A DNA stretch of 64,000 nucleotides, from the NCBI RefSeq assembly GCF_009914755.1, contig NC_060947.1. The stretch is one strand, 5' to 3'. How positions within the stretch are numbered: position 1 is the first letter of the stretch; the number at the start of each line of letters is the position of its first letter. Made by a program: the position numbers and the translations under genes. Origin of the DNA: the human T2T-CHM13v2.0 reference genome, Homo sapiens. The notes beneath the pieces were generated by a model. The model had not been told where the DNA came from. It ran no database searches and saw nothing but the letters and a program-made list of their open reading frames with translations. Shown here one piece after another: positions 5,731 through 47,816 of this stretch.

Positions 5731-6123
5731 CCAAGGAATATAGGAGTTTGTCAAGGGGCTATGAGGGAACAATGAGGCTGATTGATTAGTTTTGGAAGCC
5801 TAATAAAACAAGAGTAATAGCGGTAGACATCCCTGTACTTTTTGGGGGAGAAATATGCCTAAGATAATAGAAACATCTGGTCCACCTAACAGATAAATTA
5901 TTTTGCATTCAAATACATTAGATACCAAAAAGATGCAGGTTATTGACATTGTATGCCTTTGATTTAATATTTATTAAGCACTCATCTAATAATTTTGCAT
6001 TCTCTTTAACTTGCTTAATAGGGAAATTGGGGTGTTTTCTGCTCAACAGACATATCTGACCTGTATGATAATGGAATTTCTCATTATAAGTCAATAAACT
6101 TTTGTTCTTTCTGTATCTTTCAG

Positions 6124-6385
6124 TCTTATGATGTAATCAGCGCGATTTCACTTCCTGAATTTCGATGAATTCTAAGACATGGGCAAGATCGGGTTGTAAG
6201 ACCTCTGAGATTTAAGGCCATGCCCTGGATCATGGTGAACTTACCAAAGCAAACAATGCCTGTGAGATGGTCCTGCAGCAGCCAACCAGTGAACTCTTTT
6301 GGTGACATCCTGTTCTTGTTGTATAACTTTATATTCCTATAAATCCATTAAGGCCCCAATAAAGTTTGTCTCTAAGCGCTGTGTT
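6124..6385 (+). other. Putative terminal exon (short coding end plus 3'UTR) of an unidentified + strand gene
   Basis: Strong polypyrimidine acceptor ttttgttctttctgtatctttcag|T. Stop at 6134-6136 (..SLMM*) or 6166-6168 (SYDVISAISLPEFR*). Locally GC-richer with retained CpGs. AATAAA at 6358-6363. Confidence 0.5.
6358..6363 (+). terminator. Candidate polyadenylation signal AATAAA
   Basis: Canonical hexamer ~235 nt after the strong acceptor, with GT-containing sequence downstream. Confidence 0.45.
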
Positions 6386-10060: not shown

Positions 10061-12911
<2,851 letters not shown>

Positions 12912-13002
12912 CATATTAATCCCTTCCCCATAAAGAGAGATAAACTCACTGCTGAGTGTTGTTTACTTTTCTTCTGATATCCTCTAACTTAAATACTATA
13001 AT

Positions 13003-13180
13003 GTGAATCACACTGATTACATCACAAGACTGAAAGACACAGAAAGAGAACAAAAGTTTATTGACTTATAATGAGAAATTCCATTATCATACAGGTCAGC
13101 TATGTCTGTTGAGCAGAAAACACCCTGCTTTCCCTATTAAGCACCTTAAAGAGAATGCAAAATTATTAGATGAGTGTTTA
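13003..13180 (-). repeat. Inverted copy of 5975-6151 (~93% identical)
   Basis: Reverse complement aligns to 5975-6151 with about 11 substitutions and 2 small indels (hand count). Confidence 0.95.
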
Positions 13181-13568
13181 GGAAAATGTGGCACATATAC
13201 ACCATGGAATACTATGCAGCCATAAAAAAGGATGAGTTCATTGTCCTTTGTAGGGACATGGATGAAGCTGGAAACCATCATTCTGAGCAAACTATCACAG
13301 GGACAGAAAACCAAACACCGCATGTTCTCACTCATAGGTGGGAATTGAACAATGAGAACACTTGGACACAGGGCAGGGAACATCACACACCAGGGCCTGT
13401 CATGGGGTGGGGGCATGAGGGAGGGATAGCATTAGGAGAAATATCTAATGTAAATGACGAGTTAATGGGTGCAGCAAACCAACACGGCACATGTATACAT
13501 ATGTAACAAACCTGCACGTTGTGCACATGTACCCTAGAACTTAAAGTAGAATAATAATTAAAAAAAAC
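13181..13568 (+). mobile_element. 5'-truncated L1PA5/6-like 3' end (~390 bp)
   Basis: GAAAATGTGGCACATATACACCATGG...GTACCCTAGAACTTAAAG plus an A-rich tail. Inserted into the ERVL 3' region. Confidence 0.94.
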
Positions 13569-15684
13569 AAGCTCACATACTGATATAAAGTCAATACATC
13601 TTTTGTTACATTATAAAGGAATAAGAGAGGAAATGAAACAAAGATATTTGCTTAATAAATGTATATTATACATAATATACATATACATATATATAATCTT
13701 AATTTTAACACATAGAAAAGAAATACTCATGACAATTATGGTCTTTTTTTCCTTAATTGGTCATGTGGTCATAGCTGGTATTTTGAACAACCTATTTCTA
13801 CAACCCATTCTGTATTCTCTTTGCTTGCAGCAAGCACCTCAGCCAAATGTAATTCCTTACCTGCTGGTGTGATCCAAACCTTCATTCCTGAAGGGTTTCG
13901 GCCATTTGTTGTTCTGCCTGGATTGGGTCATTGTAGTTTTCCATTGACCCTTAATCATAGGGTGTGGTAATATTAAGAGACTCCCTAGAAGATCTTCTGT
14001 ATTCCATAAATACTCTTTCTTACCTCCACTGGGGTACGGTAGTCTACCTTCTCCTTGGTAGTTTGGACCAATTACATAGGTCACTAGGCAATTTGCCACT
14101 TTCTTGGTTGCAGGAGGAATCAGATGCAACAACTTATTATTTGCCTTAGGAAGGACATCTTGGCATGCCCCACACCACATAACCCCTAGAAATTTTAAAG
14201 AGGTTGAAGTCTCCTGAATTTTAGTTGGATTTATTTTCTACCTTCTGAAATGCAAATGTCTTAGCAATAAGTGCAAAGTATTTGTTACTTTTTGCTCATT
14301 AAGTCCAATCAGAAAATGTCTTCGATGTAATAGGTCTGTGAAATATCTTGTGGAAGAGAAAAACAATCAAGGTCCCTTTAAACTAAATTATGATGTAGTG
14401 CTATAGAGTTAAGACACTCTTGAAATAGTACAATAAAGATTATTACTGGTCTTTGCAGCTGACAGAAAACTGGTTCTGGTGGACATTATGGACAAATTTG
14501 GAGAAAAGGTGTTTGCCAGATTATTAACTGCCTAGCAGGTACCAGGAGATGTGTTAATTTGCTCAAGCAGTGAATCCACATCTAGTGGAGGAGTTTCCAT
14601 TGGAATCACCACTTGTTTAATTTTATGATATTCCACTGTAATTTTCCAAGACCCATCTCTCTTCTGCACGGTAAAATAGAAGAGTCGAATGGGGAATGTG
14701 GTAGGAATCAACATCTTTGAATCTTTCAAGTATTTGATGGTGGCATTAATGTCTACAATCCTTCCAGAGATGCAGTATTGCTTTTGATTTACTATTTTCC
14801 TTGGTATACACAACTCTAATTGCTTCTATTTGGCCTTTCTCACTATAATAGCTTTCACTTTTCTGGTTAGAAAACCAGTGTTGAGATTCTTCCAGCTGCT
14901 AATTATTTCTATTCTAATGATGCATTCTGGAACTAGAGAAATAACCACAGAATGGGATCAGTGACCTACTGGACTCACCGCAAGATAGACCTCAGCAAAT
15001 ACTTCATTGATCACCTGACCCCCATAGCCCTTACTCTGACTAGAGAGCCTCCCCTTCATTCAAGGGTTTCTGTGTTTGTAAACTGGATGAAGCCTGAAAA
15101 TTAATTGAGTGTTGTGGTGTTTTTTTTTTTTTTTTTTTTTGCTTTTATGATTCAAATTAGACTTTCGTTTATTTGACCTGGACATTTTCTGCTTATACAG
15201 ATCAAGTAAAGACTTAGTAGCTTTCTCATCTATTTCACTTATGGAAACTAGCCAACACCATAGTTCTGTGTGAGTCAGATTATTCTGATTGGGGCTTTTA
15301 CACTGCTGTCCATTACAGTAATTATACTCACCTTTCTTTTAATGATTGTGTGCCGCAACTTCACCCCTGCTATCTCAAGATCCAATTATACCTATTGCAT
15401 TTAAGTTTTCCAATTGAGTGATTGCAGGTTTCACCGTAAGATCTGTCCTACAGAGAAAAGCAATCATGGAGCTCTTCAAGGATGCTGGGGATCCCCTCAC
15501 AAATCTATTTCCCAAAGCACTGGTGAAAGTTACACTTTCTAGACTCTTCCAGTGTTGATGACTAAGCCTTAAAAGACAAATCTACTCTAGTATTTTAATC
15601 TCCCTAATCCTGTGAATTTCTTCTTCTCCATTAAACCAAGGGTGTTTGGGTATTTCCAAGTCACTCATAATTGGCTGTCTTTTT

Positions 15685-16180
15685 TTTTAAAACATGAATT
15701 TATTCAGCCCATAATTCCAGAAGTTGCATAAATGAAAGAGTTAAAAAACAGCAGAGACTGTATCTGTGTGGTATAGGCTTTAAGAGCAATGACAGCTCAA
15801 GAAATAGGAGCGAGCAATGTAGGGAAGGAAAAACTATGAGCTGTTTTATTAGATATGTGAGTCTAAAATTTAGATGAGTGTTATTAAAGGAGAAAAGGTA
15901 TCAAAGGTATGAAGATCATACTTGAGGAAATTCCCAGAGAAAGACTTTAATATAGATAATGCAATACAATCAGGAAATAGTTATCTGATGATTAATTTTT
16001 AAAAATATTACTTTTAGTAGACTGTTATGCAGTAAAATGGGACAATAGTGGTCACAGACTTAATAAAGATTAAACTAAGTGACCAAAAAGGTGATTATGC
16101 AGTAAAATGAAAGAATAGTGGTAACAGACTGTTAATAAGGATTAAATTAAGTGATCAATTAAGTAATTATTAAATAATTA
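15685..16180 (-). other. L1 3' transduction (unique sequence between the L1 3' end and a second poly(A), inside the TSDs)
   Basis: Minus-strand AATAAA at 15699-15704 and poly(A) remnant at 15680-15688. TSD at 15669-15684 and 21945-21960. Confidence 0.8.
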
Positions 16181-21944
<5,764 letters not shown>

Positions 21945-45572: not shown

Positions 45573-47816
45573 TGCATTAGTCCATTTTCATGTTGCTGAT
45601 AAAGACATACCCAAGACTGGGAAGGAAAAGAGGTTTAATTGAACTCACAGTTCCACATGGCTGGGGAGCCCTCAGAATAATGGCCAGAAGTGAAAAGCAG
45701 TTCTTACATGGAGGCAGCAAGAGGAAATGAGGAAGAAGCAAAAGCAGAAACCCCTGATAAACCCATTAGATCTCATGAGACTTATTCACTATCAAGAGAA
45801 TAGCACGGGACAGACCAGCCCCCATGATCCAATTATCTCCCCCTGGGCCCCTCCCACAACACATAGGAATTCTGAGATATACAATTCAAATTGGGATTTG
45901 GGTGGGGAAACAGCCACACCATATCATCCCACCCCTGGACCCTCCAAATCTCACATCCTCACATTTCAGAACCAATTATGCCTTTTCAACTGTCCCTCAA
46001 AGTGTTAACTCATTTTAGCATTAATCCAAAAATCTATAGTCCAAAGTCTCATCTGAGACAAGGCAAGTCCTGTCCACCTATGAGCCTGTAAAATCAAAAG
46101 CAAGCTAGTCAGTCCCTAGACACAATTAGACTACAGGTATCGGGTAAATACAGCCATTCCAAGTGGGAGAAATTGGCCAAAACAAAGGGGCAGTCCAGTT
46201 TTAAAGCTCCAAAATGATCTCCTTGACTCCAGGTCTCACATCCAGGTCATGCTGATGCAAGAGTTGGGTTCCTATGGTCTTGGGCAGCTCTGCCCCTGTG
46301 GCTTTGCAGGGTACAGCCTCCCTCCCAGCTGCTTTCATGGGCTGGCATTGAGTGTGACTTTTCCAGGTGCATGGTGCATGCTGTCAGTGCATCTACTATT
46401 CTGGGATCTGGAGGATGGTGGCCCTCTTCTCACAGCACTACTAGGTAGTGCACCAGTAGGGACTCTGTGTTGGGGTTCCAACTCCACATTTTCTTCCACA
46501 CTGCCCTAGCAGAGGGTCTCCATTAGGGTCATGTCCCTGCAGCAAACCTTTGCCTGGGTATCCAGGTGTTTCCATACATCTTCTGAAATCTAGGCAGTGG
46601 TTCCCAAACCTCAATTCTTGACTTCTGTGCACCCTCAGCCTCAACACCACTTGGAAGCTGCCAAGGCTTGGGCCTTTCACCCTCTGAAGCCACAGCCTGA
46701 GCTCTATATTTTCCCCTATCAGCCACAGTTAGAGTGGCTGAGATACAGGGCTCCAAGTCCCTAGGCTGCAGACAGCACGGGGACTCTGGCCCTGGCTCAT
46801 GAAACCACTTTTTACTCCTGGGCCTCCAGGCCTGTGATGGGAGGGGCTGCTGTGAAGGTCTCTAACATGCCCTGGAGACATTCTCCTCATGCTCTTGGGG
46901 ATTAACAGTAGGCTCTTTGCTAGTTATGGAAATTTCTGCAGCTATATTAAATTTCTCCTTAGAAAATGGGTTTTTCTTCTCTACTGCATCGTCAGGCTGC
47001 AAATTTTCTGAACTTTTATGACCTGTTTCCTTTTTAGAATGGAATACTTTTAACAGCACCCAAGTCACTTTTTTAATGCTTTGCTACTTAGAAATGTCTT
47101 CTGCCAGATACCCTAAACAATCTCTCTCAAGTTCAAAGTTTCACAAATACCTAGGGGAGGGGCAAAATGCCATCAGTCTCTTTGCTAAAACATAACTAGA
47201 GTCACCTTTGCTCCAGTTGCCTACAAGTTCCTCATCTCCATCTGAGACCACCTCATCCTGGACCTTATTTTTCGTGTCACTATCGGCATTTTTGTCAAAG
47301 CCATTAAATAAGCCTCAAGGAGGTTCCAAAGTTTCTCACATTTTGCTGTATTCTTCTGAGCCCTCAAAACTGTTCCAACCTCTGCCTGTTACCCAGGTCC
47401 AAAGTCACTTCTACATTTTTGGTTATCTTCTCAGCAACACCCCACTCTACTGGTACCAATTTACTGTATTGGTTTGTTCTCACACTGCTAATAAAAAAAA
47501 TCTGAGACTGAGAAGAAAAATAAGTTTAATTGGACTTACAGTTCCACATGCCTAGGGAGGCCTCAGAATCATGGCAGGAGGTGAAGGGCACTTCTTACAT
47601 GGCAGCAGCAAGAGGAAATGAGGAAGAAGCAAAAGGAGAAACCCCTGATAAATTCATCAGATCTCATGAGACTTATTCCCTATCATGAGAATAGCACAGG
47701 AAAGACCAGTCCCATGATTCAATTACCTCCCCCTGGGACCCTTCCACAACATGTGGGAATTCTGGAAGATACAATTCAAGTTGAGATTTGTTTGGGGACA
47801 CAGTCAAACCATATCA
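45573..47816 (-). mobile_element. Two-LTR THE1 (THE1C-like) MaLR element: LTR 45573-45926, internal region, LTR 47465-47816
   Basis: Paired ~355-bp direct repeats (..GCAAAAGCAGAAACCCCTGATAAA..CCATATCA) around a ~1.5-kb THE1-type internal region with TGGTACCAA next to the LTR. Confidence 0.93.

What the first reader, a model, noticed from the sequence alone, without database searches (positions are those of the whole stretch)
13003..13568. L1 insertion that captured an inverted copy of a splice-acceptor region 7 kb away
Seen: 13003-13180 is the reverse complement of unique sequence 5975-6151 (~150 nt of intron plus the first ~28 nt of the putative terminal exon, ~93% identical). It is fused directly to the 5' end of a truncated L1PA5/6 (13181-13568). 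The composite interrupts otherwise nearly contiguous ERVL sequence with no TSD. The left junction shares GTGAA/TTCAC with the source. The source keeps CGCG where the copy has TGTG, so 6 kb is the likely donor. Inference: the second target-strand end primed on the neighbouring gene's unspliced nascent RNA (twin-priming-like, on a different RNA), or on local DNA during repair.
Basis: partly seen in the sequence, partly recalled or inferred. Interest (0 to 1): 0.8.

Follow-up and report, generated by a model that had tools for sequence, protein, structure and literature searches.

The report
L1 insertion with inverted nearby duplication
An old L1 retrotransposon insertion next to the human NBDY gene carries an upside-down 175-base copy of that gene's last splice-acceptor region, taken from about 7 kb away, and it looks like a fossil of a kind of messy L1 integration already seen in cancers and cultured cells.

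Summary
Window 13003-13180 is the reverse complement of 5975-6151, the last 149 nt of NBDY intron 2 plus the first 28 nt of exon 3. There are 11 substitutions in 176 aligned bases and 2 indel events. The whole 3.1-Gb assembly holds only these two copies. The copy abuts a 5'-truncated, A-tailed L1 3' end (13181-13567). The 566-nt composite sits in one break of a roughly 620-nt dispersed LTR-like repeat. All 17 paralogous places examined read straight across the break. In 9 of the 12 that carry both flanks, about 12 nt present there are missing here. There is no target-site duplication. Both junctions show microhomology: GTGAA between target and donor, and TTA(A) between donor and L1. This argues for a single L1 integration in which the upstream (reciprocal) target end primed about 175 nt of synthesis on + strand sequence 6.85 kb upstream and then joined the L1 cDNA. 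I favour a fold-back on resected single-stranded DNA (about 0.55) over priming on nascent NBDY pre-mRNA (about 0.2). The sequence cannot separate them. Both mechanisms are already in print for somatic and experimental L1 events, so this is a fixed germline member of a known kind. Primate orthologues could not be examined.

The parts
5975..6151 (+). Donor: the last 149 nt of NBDY intron 2 (5975-6123, with polypyrimidine tract and AG) plus the first 28 nt of terminal exon 3 (6124-6151).
   Evidence: One of only two copies in the assembly. The exon start is from the hub's gene table.
13003..13180 (-). Inverted copy of the donor. It reads NBDY-sense on the - strand.
   Evidence: 92.6% over 175 nt. 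11 substitutions in 176 bases plus 2 indel events, K2P 0.066.
13003..13007 (.). Left junction with microhomology GTGAA. The bases can be read either as the target repeat or as the donor (reverse complement of 6147-6151).
   Evidence: Other copies of the target repeat read GTAAA(AT), and one (L005) reads GTGAAAT, at this position. The donor's reverse complement reads GTGAAAT.
13177..13185 (.). Donor/L1 junction with overlap TTA(A)-.-AAA. The donor's reverse complement reads ..TTAATAAAT and other L1 copies read ..TTAAGAAAA.
   Evidence: 4 other L1 copies in the window shown beside the donor. The repeat finder extends the donor match to 13185.
13181..13567 (+). 5'-truncated L1 3' end: the last ~55 codons of ORF2 onward, the 3' UTR, and an A-run at 13560-13567.
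   Evidence: ORF2p residues 1220-1242. 94-95% identity to the best genomic L1 copies. 81-89% identity to 5 other L1 3' ends in the window that span most of its length.
12897..13002 (-). Left part of the target: a dispersed LTR-like repeat. The - strand is inferred from TG.. at its 14076 end.
   Evidence: 40 matches scored of 52 candidates. 13 fetched loci match it at 73-81%.
13568..14075 (-). Right part of the same repeat. 13568-13576 aligns poorly and is of uncertain origin. Matches begin at 13572-13582 and end at 14075 in 17 of the 18 loci that show this part (14060 in L021; L006 stops at 14017).
   Evidence: 1231 candidates, 40 scored..

Best explanation
One L1 retrotransposition event, roughly 15-40 million years ago, made the whole 566-nt composite.

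1. L1 ORF2p nicked the bottom strand at the right-hand junction and reverse-transcribed the 3' end of an L1 RNA. That product is the + strand L1 at 13181-13567 with its A-tail.
2. The top strand broke a few bases to the left, so no target-site duplication formed and about 12 nt (range 3-20) of target were lost.
3. The free 3' end of the upstream (reciprocal) target end, ending ..GTGAA(A), did not join the L1 cDNA at once. It folded back and annealed by 5-7 nt of microhomology to TTTCAC at 6146-6151 on its own + strand, 6.85 kb upstream. That strand had been made single-stranded by 5' resection of the break.
4. This end primed about 175 nt of DNA synthesis, which produced the inverted copy.
5. 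The new end then came off the template and joined the 5'-truncated L1 cDNA at a TTA(A) microhomology.

Shown: the structure, the uniqueness of the two copies, a single break in the target, both microhomologies, and the orientation. Inferred: the order of steps, that the template was DNA and not RNA, which polymerase acted, and the date.
For: **One event rather than two.**
- Copy and L1 abut with no intervening base.
- Together they fill one break in a repeat. Twelve distinct paralogous places carry both flanks. In those 12, 15-28 nt (50 in one) lie where the window has 3-13 nt, which implies 12 nt missing in 9 of them, 16 in 2 and 42 in 1.
- Five further paralogues differ upstream of about 12991 but also read straight across the break.

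**Derived copy.** Only two copies exist in 3.1 Gb, and the one at 13 kb is the one that lies inside the break.

**Microhomology.** It is present at both junctions.

**Geometry.**
- The donor lies on the reciprocal-end side, on the same strand, inverted, and 6.85 kb away.
- That is within the <10 kb that the bioRxiv preprint 10.1101/2024.12.14.628481 gives as the range of break-end resection.
- The same preprint describes L1 insertions with inverted duplication on the reciprocal end, formed by self-annealing of a resected 3' overhang that primes synthesis (passages).

**Intron content.** The copy crosses an intron/exon boundary. A DNA template explains this without needing a short-lived unspliced RNA.

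**Age.** The copy/source distance is K2P 0.066 (SE of raw p 0.018). The L1 is 94-95% identical to its best genomic matches. These are of the same order.
Against: - Nothing in the sequence tells a DNA template from an RNA template. The donor lies in a transcribed gene, in the sense orientation that priming on its RNA would need.
- In the preprint's two inverted-duplication examples the implied hairpins are small, and large loops gave inversions instead. A 6.85-kb loop with only 175 nt copied is therefore not the typical published case.
- I could not see from the text how far the donors lay from the target in PMC10191854.
- Co-arrival of the two parts was not tested in other primates.
- The endonuclease site is inferred only from paralogues, and 13568-13576 aligns poorly to them.
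- The dating is crude: 11 substitutions, with no outgroup.
Confidence: 0.55

Rival explanations
1. The event and geometry are the same, but the template was RNA. The reciprocal target 3' end primed reverse transcription by ORF2p on nascent, still unspliced NBDY pre-mRNA. This is twin priming on a second RNA. The RNA may have been held near the site by a polymerase reading past the NBDY poly(A) site (window 7983), 5 kb upstream of the insertion.
For: - The orientation is the one twin priming gives (antisense to the L1), and there is microhomology at both junctions.
- The donor lies within the annotated NBDY transcript, in sense (hub table).
- Law & Burns 2026 (PMC13174262; passages and section 13) ascribe antisense tRNA, 5S, U5 and mRNA pieces at L1 5' ends to twin priming.
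- PMC10191854 reports one somatic insertion in which pre-mRNA transcribed in the vicinity was co-inserted.
Against: - 149 of the 177 donor bases are intron, just upstream of a 3' splice site, so the RNA would have to be caught before splicing.
- The donor lies on the very side and strand that a DNA fold-back demands. The RNA model predicts that only because the gene happens to lie there.
- The published pre-mRNA case was ascribed to strand switching of the RT, which gives the opposite orientation.
- There is no RNA-specific mark: no splice junction, no untemplated bases, no poly(A).
Confidence: 0.2
2. A template switch of the first-strand L1 cDNA. After copying 387 nt of L1 RNA, the growing bottom strand jumped by TTA(A) microhomology onto the - strand of the NBDY region (DNA, or an antisense RNA). 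It copied 175 nt and then annealed to the upstream target end through GTGAA.
For: It fits both microhomologies and the final orientation equally well. RT template switching is the accepted route to U6/L1 chimeras (PMC13174262, introduction passage).
Against: - It needs the - strand as template. No antisense gene is annotated there (hub table).
- As DNA, the - strand at the donor is either duplex or, after 5' resection of the left end, the strand that is degraded. This is inference.
- Known switch chimeras are mostly sense to the L1 and flanked by target-site duplications. This one is antisense to the annotated RNA and has none.
Confidence: 0.07
3. Endonuclease-independent use of a pre-existing double-strand break. 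L1 cDNA and a templated patch of nearby sequence were both used as filler in break repair, with no ORF2p nick.
For: There is no target-site duplication, a small target loss, and microhomology at both junctions. From recall, not from any call here: endonuclease-independent L1 insertions and templated-sequence insertions at breaks are described (Morrish 2002; Onozawa 2014).
Against: An A-tail is present and meets the target at a T-rich/AA-like bottom-strand site, as inferred from paralogues. This fits ordinary target-primed reverse transcription. Small target deletions also occur with endonuclease-dependent events.
Confidence: 0.08
4. Two unrelated events: a small inverted duplication and, separately, an L1 insertion that happened to land at its edge.
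For: Inverted duplications with a median length of 284 bp and 1-15 bp microhomology are a common class of human structural variant without L1 (PMC12350158, passages). Co-arrival was not tested here.
Against: The two pieces touch with no base between them and share one break of the target repeat. A second hit within a few bases of the first is very unlikely in a 64-kb window that has only this one inverted two-copy segment. The two ages are similar.
Confidence: 0.05

Closest known systems
L1 insertion with fold-back inverted duplication of upstream target DNA ('process C' of Nam et al. 2023, PMC10191854; 'inverted duplication on the reciprocal end', bioRxiv 10.1101/2024.12.14.628481)
   Same: - An inverted copy of genomic sequence from the 5' (reciprocal) side sits between the target and a 5'-truncated, A-tailed L1.
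- The donor is retained.
- There is microhomology at the priming point.
- The copied length (about 175 nt) is within the reported 52-220 bp.
   Different: - This one is fixed in the germline and tens of millions of years old, not somatic, tumour or cell-culture.
- The donor is 6.85 kb from the break, whereas the preprint's two examples imply small hairpins.
- There is no target-site duplication, whereas the preprint notes a duplication between the two ends in its examples.
- The copy happens to contain a gene's terminal splice acceptor.
Twin priming (Ostertag & Kazazian 2001; cited, paper itself not read)
   Same: The second target end acts as a primer. The 5' piece is inverted relative to the 3' L1 piece. 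There is microhomology at the internal junction.
   Different: The inverted piece is not L1 sequence, so the second primer did not use the L1 RNA. There is no target-site duplication.
Antisense RNA/L1 chimeras in the catalogue of Law & Burns 2026 (PMC13174262)
   Same: A non-L1 piece lies at the L1 5' end, antisense to the L1, and arrived as one insertion. The authors suggest twin priming.
   Different: - Their partners are small RNAs, Alu and (mostly first-exon, spliced) mRNA from elsewhere in the genome.
- Here the piece is intron plus exon from 7 kb away on the same strand.
- This locus is not in the 4 supplementary files held: 0 hits for NBDY, LINC01420, or chrX at 56.1, 56.7 and 56.8 Mb. 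The hg38 position is my recollection, and long files may have been cut.
U6/L1-type chimeras by RT template switching, and 5' transduction
   Same: Foreign sequence is fused to the 5' end of an L1 in one event.
   Different: Those are sense to the L1, are usually flanked by target-site duplications, and (for transductions) are attached to near full-length L1s. Here the piece is inverted, there is no duplication, and the L1 is 387 nt.

Membership tests
L1 insertion by target-primed reverse transcription | L1 sequence ending at the element's 3' end with an A-tail | tested here: met
   ORF2p residues 1220-1242. 94-95% identity to genomic L1 copies over bases 2-387 of 388. A-run at 13560-13567.
L1 insertion by target-primed reverse transcription | Target-site duplication flanking the insertion | tested here: not met
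   No direct repeat at the two ends. Paralogues show about 12 nt of target missing instead.
L1 insertion by target-primed reverse transcription | Endonuclease site (TTTT/AA-like on the bottom strand) at the A-tail junction | tested here: inconclusive
   Paralogues read ..AAAATTAAC.. across the site, which offers T-rich/AA bottom-strand sites. However, 13568-13576 aligns poorly, so the exact nick cannot be placed.
L1-associated fold-back inverted duplication | Inverted copy of genomic DNA from the reciprocal (5') side, between target and L1, with the donor retained | tested here: met
L1-associated fold-back inverted duplication | Short extra synthesis (52-220 bp in PMC10191854), primed at microhomology | tested here: met
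   175-178 nt. GTGAA is shared by target and donor.
L1-associated fold-back inverted duplication | Template is DNA of the resected end, not RNA | not testable with these tools
   The two templates have the same sequence. A survey of many events or an experiment is needed.
L1-associated fold-back inverted duplication | Both parts arise in one event | tested here: inconclusive
   A single break in the target repeat and abutting parts argue for it. Primate orthologues were not available.
Twin priming (classical) | The inverted 5' segment is copied from the same L1 RNA | tested here: not met
   The inverted segment is NBDY intron/exon sequence, with only two genomic copies.
RT template-switch chimera (U6/L1 type) or 5' transduction | The foreign piece is in sense orientation relative to the L1 | tested here: not met
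   The piece is antisense to the annotated NBDY RNA while the L1 is on the + strand.
   2 places in 3.1 Gb. The tool warns that very common words are skipped, but both candidates it found were scored.

The most novel reading that the evidence does not exclude
The inverted piece was reverse-transcribed from nascent, unspliced NBDY pre-mRNA. The upstream target end primed ORF2p on the read-through transcript of the neighbouring gene while that RNA was still tethered near the break. If so, this is a germline record of twin priming in trans on a neighbour's pre-mRNA. It would imply that local nascent transcripts compete with L1 RNA for the second priming step.
Probability: 0.2. Interest if true: 0.5.

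Novelty: new member of a known kind. Interest (0 to 1): 0.35.

Why it matters
The break-end remodelling recently described for L1 in tumours, normal colon clones and induced cell lines also happened in the primate germline and became fixed. This locus gives a clean, datable example with both junctions readable.

The event put a second copy of a working splice acceptor, on the opposite strand, 5 kb beyond the end of NBDY. It also created a 175-bp inverted repeat 6.85 kb apart. Either could matter for antisense exon capture, or for double-stranded RNA in read-through transcripts. Nothing here shows that either does.

For a specialist it is a tidy case, not a surprise.

Tried and rejected
- **Pfam.** A scan of 37 of the 93 stop-free six-frame pieces of 11700-16300 gave only chance-level hits. 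The first attempt, with pieces that contained stop codons, was an input error. L1 and RT identities came instead from searches against solved structures. A fourth such search, of the frame 13860-14237 (-), gave nothing meaningful.
- **Old-L1 paralogues.** Blast of the flanks against the window showed that 12578-12911 is an old L1 ORF1 region on the + strand, and not part of the target repeat. That corrected my first guess that the left flank was L1 all the way to the junction.
- **Tandem Repeats Finder.** A run on 10400-12000 found nothing, although repeat finder lists loose 30-40-nt direct repeats there.
- **Gilbert et al. 2005 (PMC1190285).** The paper is not held.
- **Dispersed-repeat reading.** Rejected.
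- **Direction of copying.** NBDY as the derived copy was rejected, because the 13-kb copy lies inside a break of an otherwise continuous repeat.
- **A-to-I editing.** I considered it as an RNA mark. Only 2 of the 11 differences are A-to-G in NBDY sense, and they cannot be polarised without an outgroup, so they carry no weight.

Full report
**1. The observation**

The repeat finder reports two adjoining inverted arms, 5970-6108/13047-13185 (139 nt, 94%) and 6106-6147/13006-13047 (42 nt, 90%). blastn joins them as 13006-13180 against 6147-5975, 92.6% over 175 nt. A global alignment of 13003-13180 with the reverse complement of 5975-6151 has 176 aligned bases, 7 transitions, 4 transversions, one 1-nt deletion and one 2-nt insertion.

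Exon 3 of NBDY starts at 6124 behind ..tttcag (hub table). The copied stretch is therefore 149 nt of intron, including the acceptor, plus 28 nt of exon. The two CpGs of the source (6141, 6143) are TpG-type in the copy.

**2. Not a repeat**

The window's own assembly (3.1 Gb in 24 contigs) could be searched. The 178-nt segment has two places in it, itself and the NBDY site. Within the window only two segments occur exactly twice, and this is the only inverted pair.

**3. The L1**

The frame 13174-13503 matches residues 1220-1242 of L1 ORF2p (E 6e-6). The 388-nt stretch is 94-95% identical to its best 39 other matches in the genome, from 5505 candidates of which 40 were scored, one being the query's own place. 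It is 81-89% identical to five other L1 3' ends in the window that span most of its length. An 8-base A-run ends it at 13567. I did not test the subfamily label L1PA5/6.

**4. The target**

The flanks are not both what they first seem. To the left, 12578-12911 is the end of ORF1 of an old L1 on the + strand. The evidence is blastn to four other L1 copies in the window and a weak match to the ORF1p C-terminus (E 0.24).

The last roughly 100 nt before the junction (12897/12909-13002) and the 500 nt after it (13572/13582-14075) belong to a different dispersed repeat (52 and 1231 candidates). I fetched 18 paralogous loci, which represent 17 distinct places.
- Twelve distinct places carry both flanks side by side. 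Counting bases between the alignment ends, 9 of the 12 have 12 nt more than the window, 2 have 16 more, and 1 has 42 more through an insertion of its own.
- The other five differ from the window upstream of about 12991, so they are a second form of the repeat. They still read straight across the insertion point.

The composite therefore fills one break in an otherwise continuous unit of about 620 nt, with no target-site duplication and a small loss. The first 9 bases after the A-run (13568-13576) align poorly to the paralogues, so the loss is uncertain within about 3-20 nt.

The unit ends ..ACA at 14074-14076 (TG.. on the - strand). It lies next to a reverse-transcriptase remnant of LTR-retroelement type on the - strand (14535-14825; Ty3 RT, E 2e-4).

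**5. The junctions**

*Left junction.* The window reads ..CTATAAT then GTGAATCAC... The donor's reverse complement reads GTGAAATCGC. Other copies of the target repeat read GTAAAAT, and one (L005) reads GTGAAAT, at exactly this spot. So 5-7 bases can be assigned to either partner.

*Right junction of the copy.* The donor's reverse complement continues ..GCTTAATAAAT. Other L1 copies read ..ATTAAGAAAATGTGG. The composite reads ..GTTTAGGAAAATGTGG. This gives an overlap of TTA(A) and, loosely, 7 of 9 bases.

**6. What this implies**

The L1 is on the + strand with its tail to the right. The first-strand primer was therefore the bottom strand of the right-hand end. The + strand of the insertion carries the antisense of + strand sequence from 6 kb. 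A 3' end that extends the top strand, meaning the left or reciprocal target end, must have copied a + strand template from 6151 towards 5975. The GTGAA overlap is where it primed, and the TTA(A) overlap is where the product met the L1 cDNA.

The alternative is that the first-strand cDNA jumped onto the - strand. This fits the letters equally well, but it needs either an unannotated antisense RNA or a DNA strand that resection of the left end would remove. This last point is inference.

**7. DNA or RNA**

A + strand template 6.85 kb upstream of the break could be one of two things:
- the top strand itself, laid bare by 5' resection and folded back on itself;
- the sense pre-mRNA of NBDY.

Both routes are already in print.
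- Nam et al. [quoted passage not shown] They ascribed these to 52-220 bp of extra DNA synthesis. They also found one insertion in which pre-mRNA transcribed nearby was co-inserted, which they ascribed to RT strand switching.
- The bioRxiv preprint 10.1101/2024.12.14.628481 (passages only) shows L1 insertions with inverted duplication on the reciprocal end in an induced-L1 clone and in a tumour. It models them as self-annealing of a resected 3' overhang that primes synthesis, and it gives <10 kb as the reach of resection.
- Law & Burns 2026 (PMC13174262; abstract, passages and section 13) ascribe antisense non-L1 pieces at L1 5' ends to twin priming. This locus is not in the four supplementary files held. 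The hg38 coordinates I searched for are from memory, and stored files may have been cut.

I favour DNA at about 0.55, against 0.2 for pre-mRNA, for four reasons:
- the piece is mostly intron, right at a splice acceptor;
- the donor lies on the side, strand and distance that a fold-back requires;
- the copied length matches the published fold-back cases;
- no RNA-specific mark is present.

Against this, the preprint's two inverted-duplication examples imply small hairpins, whereas here the loop would be 6.85 kb. The loop would be shorter if the Alu copies between about 8.1 and 10.5 kb arrived later, which I did not test.

**8. Age**

The copy/source distance is K2P 0.066 (SE of raw p 0.018). 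That gives 15-41 My for rates of 2.2 to 0.8 x 10^-9 per site per year (the rates are assumed). Two of the differences are clusters of 3 and 2 adjacent bases, which may each be a single event. The L1's 94-95% identity to its nearest relatives is of the same order. This is consistent with a single event but is not proof of it.

**9. What was not done**

No repeat library was available, so the family names are unverified. Figures of the cited papers are not held, so I could not see donor distances in the published fold-back cases.

**10. Verdict**

This is a real and well-preserved structure. It is best read as one L1 integration with a fold-back-type inverted duplication of sequence 6.85 kb upstream. 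It is a germline, fixed member of a kind already described in somatic and experimental settings, and it is of moderate interest.

Noticed in passing
window 11900-12911 (+), with 10637-11700 upstream: The 5' part of an old L1 on the + strand. ORF1-like frames run from about 12020 and end near 12900, with 59-63% blastn identity to four other L1 copies in the window and a weak ORF1p C-terminus match. It stops abruptly where the LTR-like repeat begins, so the L1 lacks its ORF2 and 3' end here. That would fit an LTR element having inserted into it. Upstream, loose 30-40-nt direct repeats (CCAGGC..-type) are reported by the repeat finder but not by Tandem Repeats Finder.
   Followed up: partly
window 14535-14825 (-): A reverse-transcriptase remnant of LTR-retroelement type (Ty3 RT, E 2e-4). 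It lies immediately 'upstream', in - strand terms, of the LTR-like unit that ends at 14075/76. About 90 nt on the unit's other side (12897-12990) is shared with 12 paralogous places. The whole looks like an internal-LTR-internal arrangement.
   Followed up: partly
loci L014, L015, L016, L020, L022 versus L004-L012, L017-L019, L021: The target repeat comes in two forms. They share everything from about window position 12991 rightwards but have different sequence to the left of it. This suggests a boundary between an LTR and two kinds of adjoining internal sequence. The five best right-flank matches all belong to the form that the window does not have.
   Followed up: partly
window 45614-45926 and 47505-47816: The only other segment of the window present exactly twice: a direct pair, 85.6% identical over 313 nt, 1.9 kb apart.
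   Followed up: no
window 13003-13180 (-): The copy keeps the polypyrimidine tract and the AG of the NBDY terminal acceptor on the - strand. A potential cryptic acceptor therefore faces leftwards, 5 kb beyond the NBDY poly(A) site. No transcript is annotated there.
   Followed up: no
window 6010-6011 and 6027-6029 versus 13144-13145 and 13126-13128: 5 of the 11 substitutions between donor and copy sit in two clusters of adjacent bases. They could be single multi-base events, possibly errors made when the copy was synthesised.
   Followed up: no
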